From the NCBI GenBank assembly GCA_001797675.1, contig MGQB01000001.1:321531-385530 (forward strand): 64,000 bases of DNA, read 5' to 3'. The stretch comes from Deltaproteobacteria bacterium RBG_13_43_22 (GTDB lineage: Bacteria > Desulfobacterota > RBG-13-43-22). The notes beneath the pieces were generated by a model. It searched no databases. It worked only from the letters and a program-made list of their open reading frames with translations, and was not told the DNA's origin. Both the position numbers and the translations under genes were made by a program. This document shows positions 5,777 through 18,123 of the stretch, piece by piece. The number at the start of each line of letters is the position of its first letter. The stretch's first letter is position 1.

Positions 5777-6433
5777 TTAAAATGATTCTTTTTTATAAGC
5801 CATCCCGATGAGCGGGTAAACGACCATACCGGAGAGGACGGCAATATCCTCGGCCGACAGGTATTTCGAGATGCTGGCATCAAAGAGAAGGTTGCCGTCG
5901 GGCGGAAATTCATCGTCTCCGGCCCAGAGAATCAGACAGACGGAAATTCGGGGGAAAACCTGAAAGCCCAGGGAGGCATCCCCTTCTTCCCGTTGTACTC
6001 CGCCCAGGCCGGTTCCCAGTTCGATTAGCAGTCCTGGATTTTTCCCAAAGGTCTGAACCAGAGGATCCTTGGCCCTTTTGGCAAAAGCCGAATAATAAAA
6101 TTCCCCGGAAGGGATTTCGCGGAAGGTGACCCAGGTATTGGTCAGAGGAGCACCCGTGGCCTGAATCAGGTAATGCATGATCAGTCCCTGTTCCTGGAGC
6201 GAGAGTTCTTTTGTGCCTTCAGGGGTAATCACTTCCCCCTCAGGCCAAGTGATTTGGATCTTCCGGTTGAGAAAAGGTAATTCAAGGACGGCCCCTTTTG
6301 TTTCCAGCTGATAAACCGTTCCACTGTTCCGGGCCAGGGCTTGCGGGTCTTTTTGTTTGAATGCCTCCCGGGCAATCTCCAGAGTGTTCTTATAATCGTC
6401 TACTCGGGGCATCGGGCTTCCTTTTGGCTGCAT
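5777..6433 (-). CDS. Conserved hypothetical protein (possibly DUF3786-like)
   Basis: 218 aa ORF in consistent coding context. It overlaps the cysKS 3' end by 34 nt. No recognisable catalytic motifs. Confidence 0.4.
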   Translation of the reverse strand: MQPKGSPMPRVDDYKNTLEIAREAFKQKDPQALARNSGTVYQLETKGAVLELPFLNRKIQITWPEGEVITPEGTKELSLQEQGLIMHYLIQATGAPLTNTWVTFREIPSGEFYYSAFAKRAKDPLVQTFGKNPGLLIELGTGLGGVQREEGDASLGFQVFPRISVCLILWAGDDEFPPDGNLLFDASISKYLSAEDIAVLSGMVVYPLIGMAYKKESF

Positions 6434-8784
6434 TGGGTGCAGATGGTCTTGTCTTTGAGATCGATCAGACGATAGCCCCGGGCGCAGATCTGATCCCGCA
6501 GCCGGTCGGCCTCGGCGAACTCTTTCCGCCGGCGGGCCGTTTCCCGGCGATTTAACAGGTTTTGCACTTCCACCGGCAACCCCGTTTCCGGGAAGTCCAG
6601 GATCTGCAATACTGAATTGACATTTCGCAGGACCTGGTCGATTTCCGTAAATTCCGAGGCTGAGATCCTTTTTCCCACCAGGATGGGATTGATGGCCCGG
6701 ACTAGTTTGAATAAGGCCGACAGGGCCAGGGCAATGTTCAGGTCATCATCCATAGCCTCCTTAAACTGGGTCTTAAAAAGGAAAAGGGTTTCTCCCACCT
6801 CGGCGGTTTCCTCCGAACCGGGCTGAACCGTATAGAGTTTTTGAATAAATTCATCCAGACGTTTTAAGGTCTTCCGTGAGGCCTCCAGGGACTTCAGGGT
6901 AAAGGCCAGGGGTTTACGGTAGTGGGTGGAAAGGAGCCAGTAGCGGATCTCGCGTCCGGTAAACCCCTGCTCCAGGATATCCCGCAAGGTCCGGGCATTG
7001 CCGGCGGCCCTGGACATCTTCTTTCCATCCACCATGACCAATTCGCTGTGCAGCCAATAATTGACGAATTTTTTCCCGCTGGCGGCTTCGCTGATGGCGA
7101 TTTCATTTTCATGATGGGGGAAAATCAGATCCACGCCGCTGGTATGGATGTCAAAGGTCTCTCCCAGGTATTTCTGGGCCATGGCTGAACACTCGATATG
7201 CCACCCCGGACGGACATTACCCCATTCGCTGGCCACATAAATTCCTTTTTTCAGTTCCGCCAGATTGGAGCGCTTGAGCAGCGTAAAGTCCCTGGGGTTG
7301 TCCTTCTCATATTCATCCAGGTCCACGGTTTTTCCCACCTGGATCTGTTTTAAATCCACCCGGGAAAGACGGCCGTAATCCTTAAACCGGGAGATGTCAA
7401 AATATAAGGATCGGAGTTTTTCATAGGCAAAGCCTTTGTTCAGTAACGTCCGGGTCAGGGCGAGCATGTCTTCCACATGTTCACTGGCCTTGGGATAATG
7501 GGCGGCCCGCTTGATTCGCAGGGTATCGATGTCTTTTAAGAATTCTTCCGCATAATAACCGGTAAACTCGTTTAAAGGCTGCCCTGCGGCCTCGGCCCCA
7601 AAAATGGTCCGATCATGCAAATCAGTGATATTCATGATATGGAAAACTTCCAGGCCCTTGAATTCCAGATAACGGCGCAGCAGGTCGGCCATAACAAACC
7701 GTCGGCAAGGACCCAGATGAAGCAGATTATCCACCGTCGGACCGCAGGAATAGATGGAGACTTTCCCTTCTTTTATCGGGACAAAAGCTTCTTTTTCCCG
7801 GGTCAGGGTATTATAAAAGACCAAGCCGGCCTTTTCCTTTTCCGCAAACAGGGTTGTGCTCAGATACCGTTCTCCTCCGTCCGGGCAGATGACCACGATC
7901 AGCCCTTTTTTCATATTTTGGGCCTGATGCAGGGCTGCGGCGACAGCCGCTCCGGAACTCATCCCCACCAGGAGCCCTTCTTCCCGGGCCATCTTCCGGG
8001 CGATATCAAAGGCTTCCTCGTCTTCCACATGCATTACTTCGTCCAGGATGCTTTTATCATAGATCCCCGGTTTATAGGATTCTTTCATGTTTTTGAGTCC
8101 CTGTATCTTATGGCCCAGATAAGGTTCCACCCCGATGATTTTAATGGCCGGATTCAATTCTTTCAGCCGCCGGGTCATACCCATCAGGGTTCCGGTGGTC
8201 CCCATGGTGGCCACGACCATGGTCACCTTACCTTTGGTTTGTTCCCAGATTTCCAGCCCTGTGCCCTGGTAATGGGCGTCGATATTGTCCGGATTGTTAA
8301 ATTGATCGAGAAGGCAGTATTGGTCCGGATGCTCCCGGGCCATCTGATACACCGTTTCGATGGAACCGTCGGTCCCCTGGTGGGCCGGGGTCAAAAGGAG
8401 CCTGGCCCCGTAAGCCTTGAGGATCTTTTGCCGTTCCACACTGGCCGATTCAGGCATGGTCAACAGGAGAGGATAACCTTTGACGGCCGCCACCATGGCC
8501 AAACCGATTCCGGTGTTTCCGGAAGTGGCTTCGATGATGGTCTTGCCTCTGGTCAGGACTCCGCTTTTTTCCGCGGACTCGATCATAGACAGGGCGATGC
8601 GGTCCTTGACCGATCCCCCGGGATTAAAGGATTCTATTTTAGCCCAGAGGGTTACCTTTTTATTGGGATTCAACCGGTTCAATCGGACCAGGGGTGTATG
8701 ACCGATCAGTTTTAGGATGTCGGGATAAGCCTGTTTCATGACCTTACTGCTTTCTTTTGGTTTTCTTTTTATTGATTCGTTCAT
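6400..8784 (-). CDS. Fusion protein: cysteine synthase (O-acetylserine sulfhydrylase, PLP) N-terminal domain plus cysteinyl-tRNA synthetase-like C-terminal domain
   Basis: Residues 16-320 match CysK/CysM (GHTPLVRLN, PGGSVKDR, GNTG, SSGAAV). Residues 325-794 align end to end with CysRS, including zinc ligands (YSCGPT, WHIECSAM, HHENE) and the anticodon-binding region (DDDLNIALALSALF). The class-I motifs are altered: HIGH reads HLGP and KMSKS reads KMSRA. The probable start is the internal ATG at 8739 (MKQAYPDILKLIGHTPLV). Confidence 0.8.
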   Translation of the reverse strand: MNESIKRKPKESSKVMKQAYPDILKLIGHTPLVRLNRLNPNKKVTLWAKIESFNPGGSVKDRIALSMIESAEKSGVLTRGKTIIEATSGNTGIGLAMVAAVKGYPLLLTMPESASVERQKILKAYGARLLLTPAHQGTDGSIETVYQMAREHPDQYCLLDQFNNPDNIDAHYQGTGLEIWEQTKGKVTMVVATMGTTGTLMGMTRRLKELNPAIKIIGVEPYLGHKIQGLKNMKESYKPGIYDKSILDEVMHVEDEEAFDIARKMAREEGLLVGMSSGAAVAAALHQAQNMKKGLIVVICPDGGERYLSTTLFAEKEKAGLVFYNTLTREKEAFVPIKEGKVSIYSCGPTVDNLLHLGPCRRFVMADLLRRYLEFKGLEVFHIMNITDLHDRTIFGAEAAGQPLNEFTGYYAEEFLKDIDTLRIKRAAHYPKASEHVEDMLALTRTLLNKGFAYEKLRSLYFDISRFKDYGRLSRVDLKQIQVGKTVDLDEYEKDNPRDFTLLKRSNLAELKKGIYVASEWGNVRPGWHIECSAMAQKYLGETFDIHTSGVDLIFPHHENEIAISEAASGKKFVNYWLHSELVMVDGKKMSRAAGNARTLRDILEQGFTGREIRYWLLSTHYRKPLAFTLKSLEASRKTLKRLDEFIQKLYTVQPGSEETAEVGETLFLFKTQFKEAMDDDLNIALALSALFKLVRAINPILVGKRISASEFTEIDQVLRNVNSVLQILDFPETGLPVEVQNLLNRRETARRRKEFAEADRLRDQICARGYRLIDLKDKTICTQCSQKEARCPE

Positions 8785-9119
8785 ATAAAGCGATCTGTTC
8801 GGAAATTGAGAGCTTCTTATGAGCCGCTTTTTGGGGAGACCGGCACAGGCGACAACGATCCTGAGAACAGCCCTGACAAAAACGGCAGTCCGGACAAGGA
8901 CGTTTTTTCAAAACAACGGGGGCAAGGTTCAAGGGGCAAGGTTGAGGATTCAAGGGTCGAGGTTCAATCAATTGATAAGGAGGAAATACTTTTTTATGTT
9001 CCTTTTCCCTTTGGCCTATTGCCTCTTGCCTATCGCCTATTTCTTGTTTGCTTTTACTTCGCACCTTGCACCTTATCCCTTAAACCCTGGCCCTTTCCCC
9101 TTTCGCCTATTGCCTGTTT

Positions 9120-10949
9120 TTATTCCACCGTTACACTCTTGGCCAGGTTGCGGGGCTGATCTACGTCGGTCCCCCGCAAGACGGCAATATGATAAGCCAG
9201 CAATTGCATGGGGATAGAATAAATAATCGGGGAAAGCCCCCATCCCACCCTGGGGAGGCGGATTTGTTCCTGGGCTTTAAATTCCTGCCGAGTCCCTTTT
9301 TCTTCATCCGTAAAAGAGATAATGATCCCTCCGCGGGCCCTCACCTCTTCCATATTGCTGAACACCTTCTCCTGAATATCGTTTTGGGGGACCAGAAAAA
9401 CCGTGGGCATCTTCTCATCAATCAGAGCGATGGGACCATGTTTCATTTCACCGGCCGGATATCCTTCGGCATGGATATAAGAGATTTCTTTTAATTTCAA
9501 GGCCCCTTCCAGGGCAATGGGGTAATGGATGCCCCGGCCCAGAAATAAAAAATCCTGGGCCTGAAAATACTTCTGGGCAATAGCCTGAATCTGGTCTTCC
9601 CCCTCCAAAACCTGCTCGATTCCATGGGGGATGCGTAGCAATTCCTGGATCATGGCCAGCCGGTCTTTCCGGGTAATCTTTTTAAGAGTTTGACCGAAAT
9701 ATAGAGTCATCAGAAAAAGGGCCGTCAACTGGGTGGTAAAGGCCTTGGTCGAGGCCACTCCTATTTCCGGGCCGGCATGGGTATAGATCACCCCGTCGGC
9801 CTCCCGGGCAATACTGCTCCCTACGACATTACAGACAGCCAAAACCCTGGCCTTTTTCTTTTTGCCCTCCCGTAAGGCGGCCAGGGTATCGGCCGTCTCT
9901 CCGGATTGGGAAATCAGGATCAGCAGGGTCTTGGGATTGACGATCGGATTCCGGTAACGGTATTCCGAGGCATAATCCACGGCTGTGGGGATGCGGCAAT
10001 ATTCTTCCAGAAGAAATTTGCCGACCAGGGCTGCATGCCAGGCCGTTCCGCAGGCAACGATATGGACCTGATCGATCTCTTTTAATTCCTCGGCGGTCAA
10101 GCCGATTTCCGGCAGGAGGACCTCCCCTTTTTCCGGTGAAACCCGGCCGCGAAAGGTATCGATAATCGCCTGGGGTTGTTCGAAGATCTCTTTCTGCATG
10201 AAATGTTTATAGCCGGCCTTTTCGGCCATGACCGGGCTCCAGGTGATCTTCTGGACTTCCTTTTTAATTATTTTCTTTTTTAAAGAAAGGATCCGGGGAA
10301 AGGGTTTCTCAATTACAGCCATTTCTCCGTCTTCGAGATAAATGACCCGGCTGGTATGATGGAGAAAGGCCAGAACGTCGGAGGCAATAAAAAATTCCCC
10401 TTCCCCAATCCCCACGATCAAGGGACATTCTTTTCGGACGGCCACGATCCGATCCGGGTCCTGGCTGTCCATGATAACCAACGCATAAGAGCCTCGGATC
10501 TTTTCCTGGGCCGTTTGAACGGCTTGAACCAAATCCTGACCTTTTATATATTTGTCGATTAGATGAGCGACAATCTCAGAATCGGTTTCCGATGAAAATT
10601 GACAACCTTCAGCCGAGAGTTGTTTTTTAAGATCCAGATAATTTTCGATGATCCCGTTATGGACCAGAGCGATCCGTCCGGCTACATGGGGATGGGCATT
10701 GGTCTCCGAGGGCCGGCCGTGGGTGGCCCAGCGGGTATGTCCGATACCGATCCGGCCGGAAACAGGGCTTTGGGAAAGAAGACGGCCCAATTCACTGAGT
10801 TTGCCCTGGCTCCGACGCACCTCAAAGTGTTCGTTTTGGATCAGGGCGATTCCAGCCGAATCATAGCCCCGGTATTCCAATTTTTTTAACCCTTCAAAAA
10901 TGACCTCAACGGGATTTTGAGGACCGAGGTATCCGATAATACCGCACAT
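9120..10949 (-). CDS. glmS: Glutamine--fructose-6-phosphate aminotransferase
   Basis: 609 aa protein with MCGIIGY Ntn-amidotransferase start, two SIS domains and the C-terminal VTVE typical of GlmS. Confidence 0.95.
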   Translation of the reverse strand: MCGIIGYLGPQNPVEVIFEGLKKLEYRGYDSAGIALIQNEHFEVRRSQGKLSELGRLLSQSPVSGRIGIGHTRWATHGRPSETNAHPHVAGRIALVHNGIIENYLDLKKQLSAEGCQFSSETDSEIVAHLIDKYIKGQDLVQAVQTAQEKIRGSYALVIMDSQDPDRIVAVRKECPLIVGIGEGEFFIASDVLAFLHHTSRVIYLEDGEMAVIEKPFPRILSLKKKIIKKEVQKITWSPVMAEKAGYKHFMQKEIFEQPQAIIDTFRGRVSPEKGEVLLPEIGLTAEELKEIDQVHIVACGTAWHAALVGKFLLEEYCRIPTAVDYASEYRYRNPIVNPKTLLILISQSGETADTLAALREGKKKKARVLAVCNVVGSSIAREADGVIYTHAGPEIGVASTKAFTTQLTALFLMTLYFGQTLKKITRKDRLAMIQELLRIPHGIEQVLEGEDQIQAIAQKYFQAQDFLFLGRGIHYPIALEGALKLKEISYIHAEGYPAGEMKHGPIALIDEKMPTVFLVPQNDIQEKVFSNMEEVRARGGIIISFTDEEKGTRQEFKAQEQIRLPRVGWGLSPIIYSIPMQLLAYHIAVLRGTDVDQPRNLAKSVTVE

Positions 10950-11076: not shown

Positions 11077-12078
11077 TCAAACCGGCCCCTTTGAATCCTT
11101 CGCCCTAACCAGGCTTTTGTTGGTCCAGGAAAACGGAGGGACAATAGTCCCATCCTTAATCATAGCTGATTCTATAACAACATGAGAAGAAATGACACAG
11201 TTAGAACCGATCCGGGTCTTCCCCCGAATCAGCGTGAAGGGACCGATGACCGTATCAGATCCAATTTGGACCGAACTTTCAATATAAGTGGTCATCGGAT
11301 CGATAATATTGACCCCCCGGAGCATCCAGTCCTTGAGGATTCTTTGTCGAAGCACCTGACTGGAACGGGACAGTTCAGACCGGTCGTTGATCCCCAGGAC
11401 CTCTTCCGACTTGGGGTGAAAAATTGTCGACATGGGCAATTCCCGTTCCCGGGCCATTTGAACGAGGTCGGTCAGATAATATTCCTTTTGACTGTTTTTT
11501 CGCGTCAATCCGGAAAGGGATGAAAAAAGGAAGGCCGAATCGAAGCAATAAATCCCGGTGTTGATTTCCCGAATTTGCCTTTGCTGAGCTGTAGCATCTT
11601 TCTCTTCGACAATTTTAAGCAGGTGCCCTTGCGGGTCCCGGATAATCCGGCCGTATCCTTTTGGATTCTCCAATTCAGTGCTGATGAGGGTTAAAGCGGC
11701 CTTCCCGCGCCTATGGACTTGAAGCAATTTTTTCAAGGTTTCCTTTTCGATCAGAGGGACATCTCCGTAAAGGACCAACACCGTGCCCCGAAACGTTTTC
11801 ATTTTTTTTTGGGCCAGTTGAAGGGCATGTCCGGTTCCTAACTGGGGAACCTGGTTGACAAAAATTCCCGGCCAGTCCCTGAAGGCCGCAACGACTTTTC
11901 CCGATCGATGGCCCACAACCAGGAGACTTTTTTGGGGTCTCAAACTCCCGGCCGCGTCCAACACATAACTCAGCATCGGTTTCCCCACCAGAGGGTGGAG
12001 CACCTTCGGAAGGTCCGATTTCATCCGGGTCCCCTTCCCGGCGGCCAGGATAACCACAGCTAAAGATTTTCTCGTCAT
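11077..12078 (-). CDS. GlmU-like sugar-1-phosphate uridyltransferase, short form lacking the C-terminal acetyltransferase active-site region
   Basis: N-terminus (VVILAAGKGTRMKSDLPKVLHPLVGKPM) matches the GlmU pyrophosphorylase domain. Only about 70 aa of left-handed beta-helix follow before the stop, giving 333 aa against about 456 aa for GlmU. It sits directly upstream of glmS. Confidence 0.7.
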   Translation of the reverse strand: MTRKSLAVVILAAGKGTRMKSDLPKVLHPLVGKPMLSYVLDAAGSLRPQKSLLVVGHRSGKVVAAFRDWPGIFVNQVPQLGTGHALQLAQKKMKTFRGTVLVLYGDVPLIEKETLKKLLQVHRRGKAALTLISTELENPKGYGRIIRDPQGHLLKIVEEKDATAQQRQIREINTGIYCFDSAFLFSSLSGLTRKNSQKEYYLTDLVQMARERELPMSTIFHPKSEEVLGINDRSELSRSSQVLRQRILKDWMLRGVNIIDPMTTYIESSVQIGSDTVIGPFTLIRGKTRIGSNCVISSHVVIESAMIKDGTIVPPFSWTNKSLVRAKDSKGPV

Positions 12079-13188: not shown

Positions 13189-14403
13189 TTAATAAATCAC
13201 CTCTTCCTTTTCAAGCTCCGCCATCTCTTCCCCGGACAGGCCGAGCATCTGCCCAAAAATTTCTTCGTTGTGCTCCCCAAGCAATGGAGAATGACGCTGT
13301 ATCCGGGCCGGGGTTTCCGAAAACCGCCAGGGAGGGCCGACAACCCAATCCTTTCCCATAACAGGATGATCTACTTGGAAATATACTCCCCGTGCTTGTA
13401 GGTGAGGATCCTGAAAGAGCCCTTCCGAACTCAATGACGGGGCAGAACCTACCCCTGCTTCTTGTAATACTTTGGTGACTTCATAATAATCCCGGTCCAT
13501 GGTCCATTGGTTAATAATCTCGTCCAGTACCCCCTGATTTTTAAGTCTGCCTTTAGAAGAAGAAAACCTGGCATCCTCCATCAATTCCGGCTTCCCCATG
13601 ACCCGGCAAAGGGCCTGCCATTCCTCATCAGTGGCCACGGCAATACTGACCCAGTTATCCTCCCCTTGGCAGCGGTAGCAATTATGAGGCGCCAGGACCT
13701 CATCCTTATTGCCTTTTCGCCCGGCCACCCTGTGGTTCATGAAATAATCCAAAAATAAATCTCCGGCCAGAACCGCAATGGTCTCCTGAGAGGCCAAGTC
13801 GATATACTGTCCTTCCCCGGTCCTCTGACGATAGATCAAGGCGGCCAGTATAACAAAGGTTGAGGTGGTTGCGCTGCGAAGATCCATGGACCCCATAAAG
13901 TTGCTGGGCGGCCAGTCCTCATAGCCGGTAATATGGGAAACACCACCCAGGGCGGCAAAAGTCGGGGCGTAACCCACATATTCTCTCTCCGGTCCGGTTT
14001 GGCCGCAAGACGACGAGGAAAGGTAAATCAGGTCGGATTTGATATCCCTCAACACCTCATATCCCAAACCTAACCTCGGGATTACGCCGGGTCTCATATT
14101 CTCCATGACCACATCGCTTACCCGTACCAGTTGTTTGGCGATTTCAACCGCCTTCGGTTTGGACAAGTTCAGAGTAACGCTTTTTTTGTTCAGATTAAGA
14201 TTATTGAAAACGGAAGATTCATTCGGGCCTGAAAATCTTCTGCCGGTACTGAAGGAAAGATTTCTGGCGTGGTCCAGTCTCCTTCGACTTTCTACTTTAA
14301 TGACCTCGGCTCCAAGAAACCCCAACAAACAGGTGGCATAAGGGCCGGCCCAGGCCGAGGTGAATTCCGTAACACGAATTCCCGCTAACGGTCCATTATT
14401 CAT
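13189..14403 (-). CDS. CoA-transferase family III (CaiB/BaiF/Frc-like)
   Basis: 404 aa protein with N-terminal motif LAGIRVTEFTSAWAGPYATCLLGFLGAEVIKVE typical of family-III CoA-transferases. Confidence 0.8.
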   Translation of the reverse strand: MNNGPLAGIRVTEFTSAWAGPYATCLLGFLGAEVIKVESRRRLDHARNLSFSTGRRFSGPNESSVFNNLNLNKKSVTLNLSKPKAVEIAKQLVRVSDVVMENMRPGVIPRLGLGYEVLRDIKSDLIYLSSSSCGQTGPEREYVGYAPTFAALGGVSHITGYEDWPPSNFMGSMDLRSATTSTFVILAALIYRQRTGEGQYIDLASQETIAVLAGDLFLDYFMNHRVAGRKGNKDEVLAPHNCYRCQGEDNWVSIAVATDEEWQALCRVMGKPELMEDARFSSSKGRLKNQGVLDEIINQWTMDRDYYEVTKVLQEAGVGSAPSLSSEGLFQDPHLQARGVYFQVDHPVMGKDWVVGPPWRFSETPARIQRHSPLLGEHNEEIFGQMLGLSGEEMAELEKEEVIY

Positions 14404-14533
14404 TCATGGCTCCTTTATAAATCCCAAATTAGGTTTTTTAAAACGAAACAAAACGATTTTGAAATATTTTGGTTAACGGTTAAAATCGATTGTTTCAATC
14501 AACAACAACCCGAAACACGAAACCCGCAACGGG

Positions 14534-15748
14534 TTAAAAAACCCCCTCGTTTTTAAGGGCGGCCAGTTCTTCGTTGGAATATCCCAAATGACGGCCATAG
14601 ATCTCCTCATTGTGTTCACCCAGCATAGGGGCGGCCTGGACCAGTTGCCAGGGTGTTTTTGAAAAACGATAGGCCGAGGAAGGAAAGGGGATTTTTCCCA
14701 AGACCGGGTGCTCCAAATCAACAAAAAAATTTCTGGCCTTGAATTGTTCCGAATGATAAATGTCCTCCGCAGTATTTACCGGCGCGATGGGGCAGCTTAA
14801 AGCCTGCCCCCTGCGGAATATCTCTTCTTTGGTATGTTGCATGGTCCACTCCATAATCCATTCATTGATTTGGCCGGCATTCTCTGACCGGACTAAAGCA
14901 TTTTGACAACCATCCTCTTTGGCCCACTCCGGATCGCCGATTAGTTTAACCAGGGCCTGCCATTGATGCTCCTCCGGCATTACAACCACGATATAGCCGT
15001 CCTTACAAGGCATGATACCGCCGGGCATCCGTCTGACCTGATCGCCACCCCGGCTTATGACCACCTGGTCGTTAGCGAAGGTAACACTCTCCACCCGCTG
15101 CATGGACATCAGGGCCTCCTGTTTCGACATTTCGATGTACTGTCCCTTGCCGGTCAGGACCTTCCAATAGAAAGCGGCGGTGACGGCTACTACAGCCACG
15201 AGTCCTACGTCAAATCCGCTGCTGTGACCGCCGACCTTGACCGGTGGACGGTCCATGTCCAGAGCGGGGATGGGCAGCAAATATCCCTGGCCGCTGACGT
15301 GAACGGTGTTGAGTTGGTAGGCCTTATAATCCTTAAAGGGACCGCGATCTCCATAGGGGGTGATGGATATCATGATCAGACCGGGATTAAGGCTCTTGAG
15401 CTTTTCATAGCCCAGATCCAAGGCCTCCAGTTCACCCGGGGGCCGGTCCTCAATGAGCACATCCGTTTTTTCAACCAGTTTTTTAAAGATCTTTTTCCCT
15501 TCCGGTTTTTTAACGTCCAGCGTCAGGCCTTTTTTATTGCTGTTCAAATAGAGAAACAGTCCGCTTTTTTCCTGATGGGGGATATCTCCCGGGAACGGAC
15601 CCCGTCTTCTGGAATCATCACCGGTGTGGGGCGGCTCAATTTTAAGAACCTCGGCGCCCATATCGGCTAATAGTTTGGAACAATAGGGTCCGCTGACCAT
15701 ATTACAATATTCTACGATCTTCATGCCCTCCAGGGCCCTTGGGGTCAT
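14534..15748 (-). CDS. CoA-transferase family III (paralog)
   Basis: 404 aa protein with LEGMKIVEYCNMVSGPYCSKLLADMGAEVLKIEPP. Tandem paralog of the 13189..14403 gene. Confidence 0.8.
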   Translation of the reverse strand: MTPRALEGMKIVEYCNMVSGPYCSKLLADMGAEVLKIEPPHTGDDSRRRGPFPGDIPHQEKSGLFLYLNSNKKGLTLDVKKPEGKKIFKKLVEKTDVLIEDRPPGELEALDLGYEKLKSLNPGLIMISITPYGDRGPFKDYKAYQLNTVHVSGQGYLLPIPALDMDRPPVKVGGHSSGFDVGLVAVVAVTAAFYWKVLTGKGQYIEMSKQEALMSMQRVESVTFANDQVVISRGGDQVRRMPGGIMPCKDGYIVVVMPEEHQWQALVKLIGDPEWAKEDGCQNALVRSENAGQINEWIMEWTMQHTKEEIFRRGQALSCPIAPVNTAEDIYHSEQFKARNFFVDLEHPVLGKIPFPSSAYRFSKTPWQLVQAAPMLGEHNEEIYGRHLGYSNEELAALKNEGVF

Positions 15749-15867: not shown

Positions 15868-18123
15868 TTATACGGCCTCAACTCTGCATCGAATATAACG
15901 GTGATAAGGGGTCCCGGCCAGGCGATCCCGATGAGTGTTTTTAGCCAACCTGTTCGCATTCGCTCCATATACTTTCCCCTGATGCACCAGGCCGAATCCA
16001 TGGGGTATCACCAGGTAACCGGGCCTGGTCACTTCCGTGACTTCAAGTTCGATTGTTTCTTCCCCGGCTTCGGTGGTCACTTTAACCATCTGGCCGTCAC
16101 TGAATCCGAACTTCGCCGAATCCTTCGGGTGCATAGTCGCCGTACAAGCCCGTTTCCCTTTGTTCCAGTCGGGATCGCGCATCTGCGTATTGGCATTCAC
16201 ATCCCAGTGCCGTCCGGAGGACATGACCAATGGGTATGCTTCCCCGTCTTCACTCAGTCGGTTCAGTTCCGGTACCGGTTCAATTTCCTCAAGCCATTGT
16301 CCCATCTCGGGTACATCCAGGTTGATACGTCCATCCTCGGTAGCCAATGACTTAAAATGGTCCCATGTTTTAGAATCGACTGAACCAATCCACAAACCTT
16401 CGGGATGTTCAAGGGTCGCTTTAAAAATATCTTCCCCAAGAGTGGGGGTTGGCTTGAGCCCTTCCCGTTCGGCTATTTCCTGAAATGAGGTCGGCAGGCT
16501 TTGCAAAGACCCCCAAAGGGATGCCAAATGAACCGAATCCAATTTTTTCCCCAGGGTTTTCCCCAAAATATAGGGCAAACTTCTTACGACCGCAGGATTA
16601 GTTTTTAAATATTGTGTCAGAGCCATCCCAAATTTTAACCGGTCTCCGCTATCGACTGCTCTATACAGTGTTTCAGGAATGTCGGGGACCAAACCCAAAC
16701 GGTCGGCTATTCGCAGGAATATTTCTCCGGCTTCGAGTCGTTCTCCTTCCGGGGTGAGGGCCGGATGTCGAACCTGCATGAATATCTTTGGGAAATCTCT
16801 TCTCATGCCCCCATCCCAGGATTCATACCCTGACCGGACTGGAAGAATATAATGGGATAGGGTGGCCGTTTCGGTCATGGCCAATTCCATGGTAACCAAA
16901 AGGTCCAGACGTTTGAAGGCCTTTTCATAGACGGAGGTATCGGCATAGGATCTTAGTGGGTTGGCGGTGCTCACAATCACTGCACGAAGTCGTTCGGGGT
17001 GGTCCGACAATATCTCTTCGGGCATCGCATTCGGGGGATAAACATTGTTGATGGCCGGAAAATTCGTCACCAGGGTTCGCCACATACGAGCCTCGCGTTC
17101 ATCGGGAGTTTCCTTTTTTCTCCTGCCATCGCGCGTATTAGCTGGAAAAATATTACCACCCTCAACCCCAATCCGCCCGCTGACCGCCCGAAGCACATTC
17201 TCAAGATAGGAGATAAGCGTGCTGTGACGGTTCAAAAGTACACCCAGGTCGCTGTGATGGCTGGATTTACGGGTTGTAAACAGCCGGCAGATCTCTTTCA
17301 CCTTACCATAATCCAGTTCGCAGACCTCAAGGGCGGCTTTGGCGTCAAAACCGGCAAACCAGCTCTGAATCTTATCGAAGCCGTTAACGTGTTTTTCGAT
17401 ATATTCCTGGTCGTGCCACCCTTCTTTAAGAATGATGGATATCATCGCCCGGTAGAAAAGGGCATCCGTTCCCGGGCGGATGGGCAGGTGAATATGGGCG
17501 ATCTTGGCCGTCTCTGACAGGCGCGGATCAACGACCACCAACAACTTATCCGGGTCCTTACTGAATTTTGTGAGTACCCGGCGGGCCTGGGGGGTGTGAT
17601 GGCTCATCATCGGATTCCAGCCCACGAGTAAAAGCATATCGGTTTCATCAAGGTCCGGGTGGGTATGGAGGTTCTGATCGCCATAGGTTTTTCCATCCAC
17701 CCAAAATCTGCCGGTAAGCTCTTGAGCCAGGGCGGTATAAAAATACTGAGACCCCAACCCCCGAAGCAGATTAAACGCAAAGGGACCCTGCGCCGGACAA
17801 CCGATACTGCCGTTTCCCATCATCAAGGCCAGAGATCGCGGACCGTGTTCATTGACCATGTCGGAGAGTTTTGCGGCGATTTCGTCAATGGCCTGCTCCC
17901 AGGAGATTCTTTCAAATGAACCCCCCACCCTCTTAAGCGGATGCATCAGACGGTCGGCATGGTGCTGATAGAATTTGATGTTCAACCCCTTGCGGCAGGC
18001 ATACCCCTCGCTGAGCGGGTTGTCCTTGTCTCCGCGCACCTTAATGATTTGATTGTTCTCGACTCGAACCTCGAGTCCGCACTGATTGCCTCATAATACA
18101 CAGGATGTCTTTTTCCATTCCAT
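15868..18123 (-). CDS. Molybdopterin (MopB/DMSO reductase family) oxidoreductase, predicted selenoprotein with in-frame UGA at codon 11
   Basis: The ORF track starts at GTG 18039 (RGDKDNPLSEGYACRKG). The in-frame upstream sequence encodes MEWKKTSCVL-TGA-GNQCGLEVRVENNQIIKV, completing the N-terminal C-x2-[C/U]-x3-C-x27-C Fe-S motif of MopB proteins. The ATG at 18123 is preceded by a GAGGAGG ribosome-binding site. The TGA lies at 18091-18093. No Tat signal is present, so the protein is cytoplasmic. Confidence 0.75.
18058..18093 (-). promoter_or_regulatory. UGA codon plus SECIS-like stem-loop (GACUCGA-GGU-UCGAGUC) beginning 13 nt downstream of the UGA
   Basis: On the minus strand: TGA GGCAATCAGTGCG GACTCGA GGT TCGAGTC GAG. 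A perfect 7-bp stem with GGU in the apical loop, as in bacterial SECIS elements. Confidence 0.55.

What the first reader, a model, noticed from the sequence alone, without database searches (positions are those of the whole stretch)
6400..8784. Cysteine synthase fused to a cysteinyl-tRNA synthetase whose HIGH and KMSKS motifs are altered
- A single 794-aa ORF joins a complete CysK/CysM PLP domain to a complete CysRS. The CysRS retains its zinc ligands, anticodon-binding domain and C-terminal extension.
- The class-I signature motifs read HLGP (not HIGH) and KMSRA (not KMSKS). In canonical CysRS the second His of HIGH and the second Lys of KMSKS contact ATP.
- Two readings are possible. One is a functional fusion that channels newly made cysteine to tRNA charging. 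The other is a CysRS paralog repurposed as a cysteine ligase, as with MshC in mycothiol synthesis.
- glmS and a uridyltransferase-only glmU homolog lie immediately upstream, which is suggestive for an amino-sugar-cysteine conjugate.
Basis: partly seen in the sequence, partly recalled or inferred. Interest (0 to 1): 0.65.

Follow-up and report, generated by a model that had tools for sequence, protein, structure and literature searches.

The report
Cysteine synthase fused to retired CysRS
This gene joins an intact cysteine-making enzyme to a copy of the cysteine-tRNA charging enzyme whose ATP site has decayed while its tRNA-anticodon and cysteine-binding sites are kept, so it is probably a cysteine/tRNA-Cys-binding module of a biosynthetic enzyme, although hundreds of sulfate-reducer genomes label it "cysteine--tRNA ligase".

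Summary
One ORF (6400-8784, minus strand; likely start 8739, 779 aa) encodes a complete CysM-type cysteine synthase fused to a complete CysRS-like half that reads HLGP and KMSRA.

- **Spread:** relatives occur in at least 588 species representatives, mostly Thermodesulfobacteriota.
- **What is kept:** in 78 species the CysM catalytic residues and the anticodon-reading residues (E. coli R423, R427, D436, R439, D451) are invariant, and the zinc/cysteine pocket is mostly kept.
- **What has decayed:** the ATP motifs are unconstrained. The first His of HIGH survives in 43/78 and the second Lys of KMSKS in 4/78. Both vary within the window's own lineage.
- **Selection:** both halves are under purifying selection (dN/dS about 0.07-0.15).
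- **A normal cysS exists alongside:** a relative with an 84% identical fusion carries a normal 492-aa cysS (HVGH, KMSKS) on the same contig.
- **Split forms:** in some genomes the two halves are adjacent genes.

So this is a distinct CysRS paralog, not the housekeeping enzyme and not MshC. The glmS/glmU link is local to this lineage.

My best reading is inferred, not shown. The CysM half makes cysteine, and the retired CysRS half binds cysteine and/or tRNA-Cys to control it, as HisZ or GCN2 do. I found no published description.

The parts
6400..8739 (-). Fusion gene, likely form of 779 aa plus stop. An alternative upstream ATG at 8784 would give 794 aa.
   Evidence: ORF list and translation. 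Public gene calls use the 779-aa form. Most homologs are 779 aa.
7879..8715 (-). CysM-type cysteine synthase (PLP) domain, aa 24-302. It contains the PLP lysine K60, the TSGNTG loop at 87-92, Q161, GTTGT at 195-199 and S276.
   Evidence: Pfam PALP 257.8 bits. TIGR01138 cysM above cut-off. Best solved relatives are CysM 2jc3/2bhs. These catalytic residues are kept in all 78 species representatives; only the third position of GTTGT alternates S/T.
6877..7785 (-). CysRS-like catalytic (Rossmann plus CP) domain, aa 334-636. The zinc/cysteine pocket is kept: C347, T387, W528, C532, H557, E561.
   Evidence: Pfam tRNA-synt_1e 317 bits. PDB 8qhp 345 bits and 1li5 310 bits. Fold TM 0.93 to 8qhp. Pocket conservation.
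7708..7719 (-). Remnant of the HIGH motif, reading HLGP (aa 356-359).
   Evidence: Relatives in the same lineage read PLGP, HLGM, HVGV, HLGN and HLGS. Other orders read NLSM, NLLL, HLGE and HPGE.
7006..7020 (-). Remnant of the KMSKS motif, reading KMSRA (aa 589-593).
   Evidence: Relatives read KMSQA, KMSYA, KISPA, KVDEQ and KMSSD, or have a shortened loop. The second Lys is kept in 4/78.
6598..6768 (-). DALR_2 helical part of the anticodon-binding domain, aa 673-729, including D680, D681 and N683.
   Evidence: Pfam. D348, D349 and N351 equivalents are kept in 75-76 of 78.
6460..6546 (-). C-terminal anticodon-reading segment, aa 747-775. It carries R747, R751, F756, D760, R763 and D775, equivalent to E. 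coli R423, R427, W432, D436, R439 and D451.
   Evidence: Translation. R, R, D and R are invariant in 78/78, D451 in all 75 sequences that reach that position, and the aromatic residue in 78/78. R427, W432, D436 and R439 are the anticodon-contact residues in 1U0B (PMC13449415).
6403..6447 (-). Lineage-specific C-terminal tail with three conserved cysteines (C-T-x-C-x6-C-P-E).
   Evidence: Conserved in the window and in L009-L013 only. AlphaFold confidence here is below 50.
8744..8911 (-). Possible partner: a conserved, unannotated small ORF of about 55 aa with a six-cysteine motif CPDCRFCQGCSQDRCRLC. Its stop lies 4 nt before the fusion's ATG.
   Evidence: Present in all 8 loci of the window's lineage and in 0 of 74 others. 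No Pfam or NCBIfam family.
5777..6433 (-). Possible partner: a DUF3786 gene whose start overlaps the fusion's stop.
   Evidence: Pfam DUF3786 193.5 bits. The same arrangement is seen in relatives of this lineage only.

Best explanation
The gene encodes a working CysM-type cysteine synthase. Its C-terminal half is a CysRS paralog that no longer charges tRNA.

Shown here:
- The CysM half has every catalytic residue.
- The CysRS-like half is under purifying selection.
- Its ATP-handling loops (HIGH, KMSKS) have lost constraint.
- Its zinc/cysteine pocket is largely kept.
- Its GCA-anticodon-reading residues are invariant.
- A separate, normal cysS exists in a close relative.

Inferred:
- The CysM half makes cysteine from an activated serine and sulfide.
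- The retired CysRS half does not activate cysteine. It binds cysteine and/or tRNA-Cys, charged or uncharged.
- Through that binding it tunes the attached synthase.

This is the logic by which the HisRS paralog HisZ controls HisG, and by which the HisRS-like domain of GCN2 senses tRNA.
For: **Paralog status**
- L010 carries the fusion (84% identical to the window's) and a canonical 492-aa cysS on one 27-kb contig. That cysS has HVGH, KMSKS and KIIA and follows ispD-ispF.
- Canonical cysS of this lineage sits in a dnaG-rpoD-ispDF housekeeping cluster.
- The fusion, split and decayed forms make one clade, 93/100 bootstraps.
- The fused half is only 36-37% identical to the resident canonical enzyme.

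**ATP site relaxed**
- 161 sites are at least 97% conserved in 116 canonical enzymes of the same phylum. Among them the HIGH block (Y33-H40) and the KMSKS block (M267-N273) are variable in 121 fusions.
- In 78 species, H37 is kept in 43, G39 in 51, H or N at position 40 in 12, and K269 in 4.
- Variation occurs within the window's own lineage: PLGP, HLGM, HVGV; KMSQA, KMSYA, KISPA.

**The half is still functional**
- dN/dS is 0.07-0.15 for the CysRS-like half and 0.05-0.10 for CysM.
- Many sites switched to a new conserved residue: I74T 99%, P108A 100%, E111Y 100%.

**Binding sites kept**
- C28 76/78, C209 71/78, H234 77/78, W205 78/78.
- R423, R427, D436 and R439 78/78, and D451 in all 75 sequences that reach it.

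**The two halves work together**
- They also occur as adjacent genes 2-4 nt apart.

**Analogy**
- HisZ lacks adenylation activity and mediates histidine feedback on HisG (PMC9437257).
Against: - No experiment exists, and regulation is inferred only from which sites are kept.
- The whole genome of the window could not be searched, so a canonical cysS is shown in a relative, not in this organism.
- E. coli CysRS K266A and K269A mutants still supported cell-free translation (PMC5660078). KMSRA alone therefore does not prove inactivity.
- New conserved basic residues next to both motifs (K588, R362) could compensate.
- The cysS model TIGR00435 still scores above its cut-off.
- The AlphaFold pTM of 0.64 gives no defined contact between the domains.
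- About 9 of 78 species have lost a zinc-binding cysteine. This weakens cysteine sensing as the universal role and favours tRNA binding.
Confidence: 0.5

Rival explanations
1. It is a truly bifunctional enzyme. The CysRS half is a second, still active cysteinyl-tRNA synthetase with an unusual ATP site, and it charges tRNA-Cys with cysteine made next door.
For: - TIGR00435 scores above its cut-off.
- The cysteine pocket and the anticodon head are conserved.
- K269A E. coli CysRS still supports translation.
- Possible compensating residues K588 and R362 exist.
- The closest relatives with canonical motifs are cysS genes next to or fused to cysM. L038 has HIGN, KMSKS and MKAGAR; P0126 is from a Nanoarchaeota MAG.
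Against: - The first His of HIGH is lost in 35 of 78 species, including the closest species representative L009 (PLGP).
- The second Lys of KMSKS is kept in 4/78. Its position takes R, Q, Y or P within the window's own lineage (plus W) and E, A, S or D elsewhere. The loop is shortened in some members.
- The CP1 motif AGAR that reads the first acceptor base pair is changed to VGKT (PMC5389517).
- A normal cysS co-occurs.
Confidence: 0.15
2. It is a tRNA-dependent enzyme. The retired CysRS half holds tRNA-Cys or Cys-tRNA-Cys as a substrate. The protein then either uses Cys-tRNA as an activated cysteine donor, as cyclodipeptide synthases use aminoacyl-tRNAs, or changes the amino acid on the tRNA, as SepCysS and SelA do.
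For: - Anticodon-contact residues are invariant while the ATP motifs are lost. Cyclodipeptide synthases show the same pattern; as class-I synthetase relatives that use aminoacyl-tRNAs this is cited (PMC2922099), while their lack of the ATP motifs is my own knowledge.
- A PLP enzyme is fused to a tRNA-binding module.
- Desulfobacterales have unusual tRNA-Cys species and another CysRS paralog (PMC5389517).
Against: - The carboxylate-binding TSGNTG loop of CysM is invariant. From general knowledge of CysK/CysM, this fits a free amino acid substrate, not an ester on tRNA.
- No conserved partner enzyme was found in the neighbourhood.
- SepRS is not known to be general in these bacteria (PMC5424206 and PMC8762117).
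Confidence: 0.15
3. It is an MshC-like ATP-dependent ligase that joins cysteine to an amino sugar made by the neighbouring glmS/glmU genes.
For: - It is a CysRS paralog with the zinc/cysteine pocket.
- glmS and a truncated glmU lie directly upstream.
Against: - TIGR03447 scores 183.7 bits against a cut-off of 485.
- MshC structures score 115 bits against 310-345 for CysRS.
- MshC keeps HIGH and KMSKS and needs ATP.
- glmS/glmU neighbours occur in only 6 of 83 loci.
- The anticodon domain is retained and invariant.
Confidence: 0.03
4. It is a cysteine persulfide synthase, using the ATP-independent side activity reported for CysRS.
For: - E. coli and mammalian CysRS make cysteine persulfide without ATP or tRNA (PMC5660078).
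- These are sulfide-rich organisms, and a PLP domain is attached.
Against: - The lysines reported as essential for that activity are not kept. KIIK reads RTIF here: K73 is R in 60% of fusions and I74 is T in 99%. K269 is kept in 4/78.
- This reading does not explain the invariant anticodon-reading residues.
Confidence: 0.04

Closest known systems
Canonical bacterial cysteinyl-tRNA synthetase (CysRS, EC 6.1.1.16; e.g. E. coli 1li5/1u0b, 8qhp)
   Same: - Same fold and domain order: Rossmann, CP, SC-fold, helical domain, C-terminal anticodon domain.
- About 40% identity.
- Zinc ligands, W205, T68 and the anticodon-contact residues are kept.
   Different: - The HIGH and KMSKS loops and the CP1 AGAR motif are not conserved.
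- It is fused to CysM.
- It forms a separate clade.
- It co-exists with a normal cysS.
HisZ, the HisRS paralog that is the regulatory subunit of ATP-phosphoribosyltransferase HisG
   Same: It is a synthetase paralog without aminoacylation that is attached to the biosynthetic enzyme of its own amino acid. HisZ mediates feedback by that amino acid (PMC9437257).
   Different: - HisZ is class II, is a separate subunit and has no anticodon domain (own knowledge).
- Here the module is class I, is usually fused, and keeps an invariant anticodon-reading head.
- A regulatory role here is inferred, not tested.
HisRS-like domain of the kinase GCN2
   Same: It is a catalytically dead synthetase-like domain fused to an enzyme and used to sense tRNA (own knowledge; review PMC13580269 was listed but not read).
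   Different: - GCN2 is eukaryotic.
- It is thought to bind many uncharged tRNAs.
- It controls a kinase, not a biosynthetic enzyme.
MshC, the cysteine:GlcN-Ins ligase of mycothiol synthesis
   Same: It is a CysRS paralog with a zinc-bound cysteine pocket.
   Different: - MshC keeps a HIGH motif and KMSKS, needs ATP and is about 410 aa. It lacks the anticodon domain and is actinobacterial (own knowledge).
- The window protein fails the MshC model cut-off.
CysRS* of some Desulfobacterales (Mukai et al., PMC5389517)
   Same: It is a second CysRS homolog in the same bacterial group, with a changed CP1 motif.
   Different: - CysRS* lacks the anticodon-binding domain.
- It sits next to selB*/selC*.
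- It is proposed to charge a special tRNA-Cys(UCA).
- The fusion keeps the anticodon domain and has a different gene context.
Adjacent or fused cysM-cysS with canonical motifs (L038, a Methanosarcinales-binned contig; P0126, a Nanoarchaeota MAG)
   Same: - The same pairing of a CysM-type gene with a CysRS.
- L038 CysRS is 53% identical to the window's CysRS half, and its relative L074 is 57% identical.
- It shares the CP-domain insertion ELKRGIYY and the DFTLLKR motif.
   Different: - These keep HIGN, KMSKS and MKAGAR and are probably working synthetases.
- They look like the starting state from which the retired form arose.
Cystathionine beta-synthase (PALP catalytic core plus a C-terminal regulatory module)
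   Same: It is a CysK-family PLP core carrying a C-terminal ligand-binding regulatory domain (own knowledge). CBS structures are among the sequence matches of the N-terminal half.
   Different: The regulatory module of CBS is a CBS-domain pair that binds S-adenosylmethionine, not a synthetase relative.

Membership tests
Canonical CysRS (housekeeping cysteine--tRNA ligase) | Overall sequence and fold match to the cysS model | tested here: met
   TIGR00435 412.9 bits against cut-off 340. 8qhp 345 bits. TM 0.93.
Canonical CysRS (housekeeping cysteine--tRNA ligase) | Conserved HIGH (H-x-G-H/N) ATP motif | tested here: not met
   HLGP in the window. In 78 species H37 is kept in 43, G39 in 51, and H or N at position 40 in 12. 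All are 100% conserved in 116 canonical enzymes.
Canonical CysRS (housekeeping cysteine--tRNA ligase) | Conserved KMSKS loop | tested here: not met
   KMSRA in the window. K269 is kept in 4/78 and the loop is variable or shortened. It is 100% conserved in the canonical set.
Canonical CysRS (housekeeping cysteine--tRNA ligase) | Zinc ligands and cysteine pocket (C28, C209, H234, E238, W205, T68) | tested here: met
   All are present in the window. Family counts are 76, 71, 77, 67, 78 and 73 of 78.
Canonical CysRS (housekeeping cysteine--tRNA ligase) | Anticodon-binding domain with GCA-contact residues | tested here: met
   DALR_2 and CysS_C are found. R427, D436 and R439 are kept in 78/78, and W432 is aromatic in 78/78 (PMC13449415).
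Canonical CysRS (housekeeping cysteine--tRNA ligase) | Is the cell's source of Cys-tRNA-Cys (sole cysS) | tested here: inconclusive
   There is no second cysS in the 64-kb window. A relative with an 84% identical fusion has a canonical cysS on the same contig. The window's whole genome could not be read.
Canonical CysRS (housekeeping cysteine--tRNA ligase) | ATP-dependent aminoacylation of tRNA-Cys | not testable with these tools
   Needs enzyme assays.
MshC (mycothiol cysteine ligase) | Match to the MshC model | tested here: not met
   TIGR03447 183.7 bits against cut-off 485.1. MshC structures score 115 bits.
MshC (mycothiol cysteine ligase) | Retained HIGH and KMSKS for cysteine adenylation | tested here: not met
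   MshC has 289-KMSKS-293 and a HIGH-motif His. The fusion family does not keep them.
MshC (mycothiol cysteine ligase) | Conserved link to amino-sugar genes | tested here: not met
   glmS/glmU are neighbours in 6 of 83 loci only. They are absent in L001 and L002.
CysM/CysK cysteine synthase (O-acetylserine sulfhydrylase family) | Match to the family model and fold | tested here: met
   TIGR01138 400.7 bits against 394.2, and TIGR01136 400.2 bits against 344. CysM 2jc3 scores 282 bits with TM 0.95.
CysM/CysK cysteine synthase (O-acetylserine sulfhydrylase family) | PLP lysine, Asn loop TSGNTG, Q142, phosphate loop, S272 | tested here: met
   All are present in the window and kept in 78 of 78 species; one phosphate-loop position alternates S/T.
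CysM/CysK cysteine synthase (O-acetylserine sulfhydrylase family) | Substrate pair (O-acetylserine or O-phosphoserine; sulfide, thiosulfate or a thiocarboxylate) | not testable with these tools
   One split-form locus has a ThiF gene next to it. This is a hint only.
CysRS* (Desulfobacterales UGA-Cys system) | No anticodon-binding domain; next to selB*/selC* | tested here: not met
   The anticodon domain is present. No such neighbours were found. The definition is from PMC5389517.
Regulatory synthetase paralogs (HisZ-like logic; an analogy, not homology) | Loss of catalytic motifs with the ligand site kept, and physical coupling to the cognate biosynthetic enzyme | tested here: met
   (motifs and binding sites). 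(fusion or adjacent genes).
Regulatory synthetase paralogs (HisZ-like logic; an analogy, not homology) | Allosteric control of the enzyme by the ligand | not testable with these tools
   Needs enzyme kinetics with cysteine, tRNA-Cys and Cys-tRNA-Cys.

The most novel reading that the evidence does not exclude
The retired CysRS half is a specific tRNA-Cys reader built into a metabolic enzyme. There are two forms of this reading.
1. The enzyme is switched by the charging state of tRNA-Cys. This would be a bacterial, single-tRNA counterpart of GCN2 acting directly on a biosynthetic enzyme.
2. More radically, the protein works on tRNA-bound amino acid. It would either use Cys-tRNA-Cys as an activated donor or make cysteine on the tRNA with a fold-type-II PLP enzyme. 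That would be a third route beside SepCysS and SelA.

The probability given is for the catalytic, tRNA-substrate version.
Probability: 0.13. Interest if true: 0.9.

Novelty: new variant of a known kind. Interest (0 to 1): 0.66.

Why it matters
- **Annotation.** Hundreds of Thermodesulfobacteriota genomes name this gene cysteine--tRNA ligase. It passes the cysS model that NCBI uses for naming. The same model is, to my knowledge, used as a phylogenetic marker. Treating the gene as a working synthetase, or as a duplicated marker, is probably wrong.
- **Synthetase evolution.** A 2022 review lists only MshC and CysRS* as CysRS paralogs (PMC9437257). This would be a third and widespread one. It shows a clear order of events: a cysM-cysS pair, then fusion, then loss of the ATP site, with the anticodon reader frozen.
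- **Cysteine homeostasis.** If the module senses cysteine or tRNA-Cys, it would reveal how sulfate reducers control cysteine synthesis. It would also give a compact, natural, tRNA-specific protein sensor.
- **Testability.** It can be tested in cultured organisms. The fusion was found in the Desulfonema magnum 4be13 genome. A MAG of Desulfosudis oleivorans also carries it; its type strain Hxd3 was not examined.

Tried and rejected
- **Regulatory RNA upstream.** Rfam found nothing in the window except two tRNA-Ser genes, and nothing in 8600-9300 at E up to 1. The purine/pyrimidine-rich intergenic stretch folds no better than shuffles (z = -1.2) and is not conserved.
- **Second cysS or cysK in the window or loci.** There is none in the window. 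Only L010 among 88 loci had a second cysS. No second cysK-like gene was found near any fusion.
- **Contig-length fingerprint.** I tried to prove co-occurrence in complete genomes (8.03-Mb D. magnum, 6.48-Mb, 3.42-Mb and 1.68-Mb contigs). Only the 27,069-bp L010 contig matched between the fusion and canonical lists. A shared length of 2,365 bp is a coincidence, because the contig is too short for both genes. Extending P0294 and P0290 by 10 kb showed housekeeping neighbours but no fusion.
- **Organism names for canonical relatives.** None were returned.
- **Conserved operon partners.** Neighbours differ between orders. A 335-aa downstream protein conserved in 32 Desulfobacterales loci has no Pfam family.
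- **SepRS/SepCysS link.** Two surveys report bacterial SepRS/SepCysS mainly in Parcubacteria and Chloroflexi, with only a rare SepRS-like gene in Deltaproteobacteria.
- **Literature.** Eight searches found no description of a CysM/CysK-CysRS fusion.
- **Structure model.** Each half is confident (mean pLDDT 87), but pTM is 0.64 and no coordinates are available. The relative position of the two active sites could not be examined.
- **Correction to an early idea.** I first took loss of the second His of HIGH as diagnostic. Many genuine CysRS read HIGN, so I dropped it.

Full report
**1. The observation**

The minus strand carries an ORF from 8784 to 6400, 794 aa from the first ATG.

- Pfam finds a PLP-enzyme domain (PALP, aa 24-302), then the class-I CysRS catalytic domain (334-636), the DALR_2 helical domain (673-729) and the CysRS C-terminal anticodon domain (734-771).
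- NCBIfam scores cysS TIGR00435 at 412.9 bits (cut-off 340) and cysM TIGR01138 at 400.7 bits (cut-off 394.2). The MshC model reaches only 183.7 bits (cut-off 485.1).
- HLGP (nt 7708-7719) and KMSRA (nt 7006-7020) align with HIGH and KMSKS of solved CysRS structures.
- The likely start is the ATG at 8739, giving 779 aa. Public gene calls and most homologs start there, and a conserved small ORF ends at 8744.

**2.

An exhaustive search of 1.84 billion representatives with the CysRS half, followed by an alignment of the best 150, shows that many ordinary standalone CysRS read HIGN plus KMSKS. Loss of the second His alone is therefore normal for CysRS. What is unusual here is a Pro at that position and an Arg in place of the second Lys.

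**3. The family**

- The 120 best database matches are all fusions of about 770-795 aa, 58-94% identical. Sources name them cysteine--tRNA ligase in Deltaproteobacteria/Thermodesulfobacteriota MAGs.
- In one genome per species (GTDB), at least 588 stretches encode a relative. The best 80 include Desulfonema magnum 4be13 (complete genome), a Desulfosudis oleivorans MAG, and many Desulfobacterales and Desulfobulbales.
- The window's own lineage is L009 (91%), L010 (84%), L011 (80%), L012 (78%) and L013 (77%).

**4. Which sites are kept**

I compared 121 fused CysRS halves with 116 canonical CysRS from the same phylum at similar depth (mean pairwise identity 0.57 and 0.62). In the canonical set, 161 sites are at least 97% conserved. 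In the fusions they behave as follows.

- 74 are kept. These include C28, G29, T31, T68, W205, H206, C209, D229, H234, H235 and K266, and in the anticodon domain D348, D349, N351, R423, R427, D436, R439 and D451. In the wider 78-species sample below, D229 proved variable.
- The HIGH block (Y33, D34, C36, H37, G39, H40) and the KMSKS block (M267 to N273) are variable.
- Many other sites switched to a new, strongly conserved residue: I74T 99%, R77G 90%, P108A 100%, E111Y 100%, R168T 92%, G225T 95%, Q241I 98%.

Counts in 78 species representatives:

| Group | Site | Kept |
|---|---|---|
| ATP site | H37 | 43/78 |
| ATP site | G39 | 51/78 |
| ATP site | H or N at position 40 | 12/78 |
| ATP site | K266 | 56/76 |
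| ATP site | K269 | 4/78 |
| Adenosine site (role from memory) | D229 | 26/78 (E 36, N 12) |
| Zinc/cysteine pocket | C28 | 76/78 |
| Zinc/cysteine pocket | C209 | 71/78 |
| Zinc/cysteine pocket | H234 | 77/78 |
| Zinc/cysteine pocket | E238 | 67/78 |
| Zinc/cysteine pocket | W205 | 78/78 |
| Anticodon reader | R423, R427, D436, R439 | 78/78 each |
| Anticodon reader | D451 | 75/75 |
| Anticodon reader | W432 (aromatic) | 78/78 |
| CysM | PLP lysine, TSGNTG, Q142, S272 | 78/78 each |
| CysM | phosphate loop GT[ST]GT | 78/78 (third position S 47, T 31) |

- R427, W432, D436 and R439 are the residues that contact the GCA anticodon in the E. coli complex 1U0B (PMC13449415).
- The motifs vary even inside the window's own lineage: HLGP, PLGP, HLGM, HVGV, HLGN, HLGS, and KMSRA, KMSQA, KMSYA, KISPA, KISRA.
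- Desulfobulbales read NLSM or NLLL with KMSSD. Desulfobacterales read HLGE or HPGE with KVDEQ.
- The CP1 motif that reads the first acceptor-stem base pair (PMC5389517) is M-x-AGAR in canonical enzymes and I-x-VGKT here.

**5. It is not a decaying gene**

dN/dS between the window and its five closest relatives is 0.05-0.10 for the CysM half and 0.07-0.15 for the CysRS-like half.

**6. A normal cysS exists alongside**

- The 64-kb window has no second CysRS homolog.
- L010 is a 27,069-bp contig of a MAG whose fusion is 84% identical to the window's. It carries a 492-aa cysS 6.4 kb downstream, after ispD-ispF, with HVGH, KMSKS, KIIA and all zinc ligands.
- The database holds exactly this protein on a contig of that length.
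- Its relatives (55-77% identical, most 486-500 aa) lie in a dnaG-rpoD-NIF3-ispDF-cysS housekeeping cluster.
- The fused half is only 36-37% identical to this resident enzyme.

**7. Origin**

- In a neighbour-joining tree, fused, split and further decayed forms make one clade (93 of 100 bootstraps). It is separate from canonical CysRS, including those of Desulfobacterota, which group with the E. coli type.
- Split forms exist. P0127 (484 aa) and P0277/P0125 (468 aa) are each preceded by a separate PALP gene of about 300 aa with a 2-4 nt gap.
- Some members are more decayed and have lost a zinc-binding cysteine.
- The closest relatives with intact motifs are L038 and L074. Their CysRS is 53-57% identical to the window's CysRS half and they carry HIGN and KMSKS; L038 also keeps MKAGAR.
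- In L038 cysM (296 aa) and cysS (464 aa) are separate genes 3 nt apart, on a contig with archaeal neighbours.
- A fused form with intact motifs occurs in a Nanoarchaeota MAG.
- The simplest history is a cysM-cysS pair, then fusion. The ATP site then decayed in bacteria that already had another cysS.

**8. Gene neighbourhood**

- glmS/glmU precede the fusion in 6 of 83 loci and DUF3786 follows in 5, all in the window's lineage.
- More distant members have unrelated neighbours.
- Nothing links the family to amino-sugar metabolism.

**9. Structure**

- AlphaFold2 with 92 sequences gives mean pLDDT 87 and pTM 0.64.
- The halves match CysRS (8qhp, TM 0.93) and CysM (2jc3/2bhs, TM 0.95).
- No solved structure covers both halves.

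**10. Mechanism**

Shown:
- an intact CysM;
- a selected CysRS-like half without a conserved ATP site;
- a mostly conserved zinc/cysteine pocket;
- an invariant anticodon reader;
- a separate normal cysS in a close relative.

Inferred:
- The CysM half makes cysteine.
- The other half no longer activates cysteine. It binds tRNA-Cys and/or cysteine and thereby controls or localises the synthase.
- The closest analogies are HisZ with HisG (PMC9437257) and the HisRS-like domain of GCN2.
- The anticodon residues are more conserved than the zinc ligands, so I weight tRNA-Cys binding above free-cysteine sensing.

Rivals:
- A still active second CysRS. This is possible because K269A E. coli CysRS still supports translation (PMC5660078), and because new basic residues flank the motifs.
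- A tRNA-substrate enzyme.
- An MshC-like ligase.
- A persulfide synthase.

The last two fit the data poorly.

**11. Novelty**

- Eight full-text searches found no description of this fusion.
- A 2022 review lists only MshC and CysRS* as CysRS paralogs.
- CysRS* lacks the anticodon domain and sits by selB*/selC*, so it is a different protein.

**12. Limits**

- No biochemistry was possible.
- The window's whole genome was not searchable.
- Co-occurrence with a normal cysS is directly shown once.
- The tree is neighbour-joining only.
It agrees with the 1li5 alignment printed.

Noticed in passing
window 8744-8911 (-): A conserved, unannotated small ORF lies just upstream of the fusion. It reads LKKRPCPDCRFCQGCSQDRCRLCRSPQKAAHKKLSISEQIALYERINKKKTKRKQ*, with six cysteines (CxxCxxCxxCx4CxxC) and a basic tail. 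Variation falls at third codon positions. It is present in all 8 loci of the window's lineage and in none of 74 other fusion loci. It has no Pfam or NCBIfam family, and the start codon is uncertain (TTG at 8911).
   Followed up: partly
window 6403-6447 (-): In the same lineage only, the fusion ends in a tail with three conserved cysteines (C-T-x-C-x6-C-P-E) in place of the usual G-T-x-W ending. It may go together with the six-cysteine small ORF.
   Followed up: partly
window 5777-6433 (-): A DUF3786 gene starts inside the last codons of the fusion, which suggests translational coupling. The arrangement is kept only in the window's lineage. The one paper that mentions DUF3786 is on an unrelated subject.
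   Followed up: partly
window 11077-12078 (-): The glmU homolog has only 333 aa and covers positions 1-325 of the 452-position GlmU profile. The C-terminal acetyltransferase part is therefore missing. The same short form occurs in 6 related loci, so it is not a sequencing truncation.
   Followed up: partly
window 8912-9119: The intergenic stretch after glmS has purine-rich repeats (AATAGGCGAAAGG...) followed by a pyrimidine-rich partial complement. It folds no better than shuffled sequence (z = -1.2), is not conserved in relatives, and has no Rfam match.
   Followed up: yes
L006 6553-7293: In one split-form locus a ThiF-family (E1-like) gene directly follows the PALP and CysRS-like gene pair. 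This could point to a thiocarboxylate sulfur donor, as in Mycobacterium CysM/CysO. It was seen once only.
   Followed up: no
L042 12467-13477, L050 12499-13512 and 30 other Desulfobacterales loci: A protein of about 335 aa (MKPIYFPFTYISEP...) lies downstream of the fusion on the same strand in 32 loci. It has no Pfam family.
   Followed up: partly
L038 9992-12280: On a Methanosarcinales-binned contig with archaeal neighbours (RFC-like ATPase, GatA/GatB, HcyBio), cysM and a canonical-motif cysS are separate genes 3 nt apart. This CysRS is the closest intact-motif relative of the bacterial retired form, which suggests transfer between archaea and sulfate reducers.
   Followed up: partly
window 13189-15748 (-) and 15868-18039 (-): Two tandem family-III CoA-transferase genes (404 aa each) lie next to a molybdopterin oxidoreductase gene (723 aa). 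They are unrelated to the finding.
   Followed up: no
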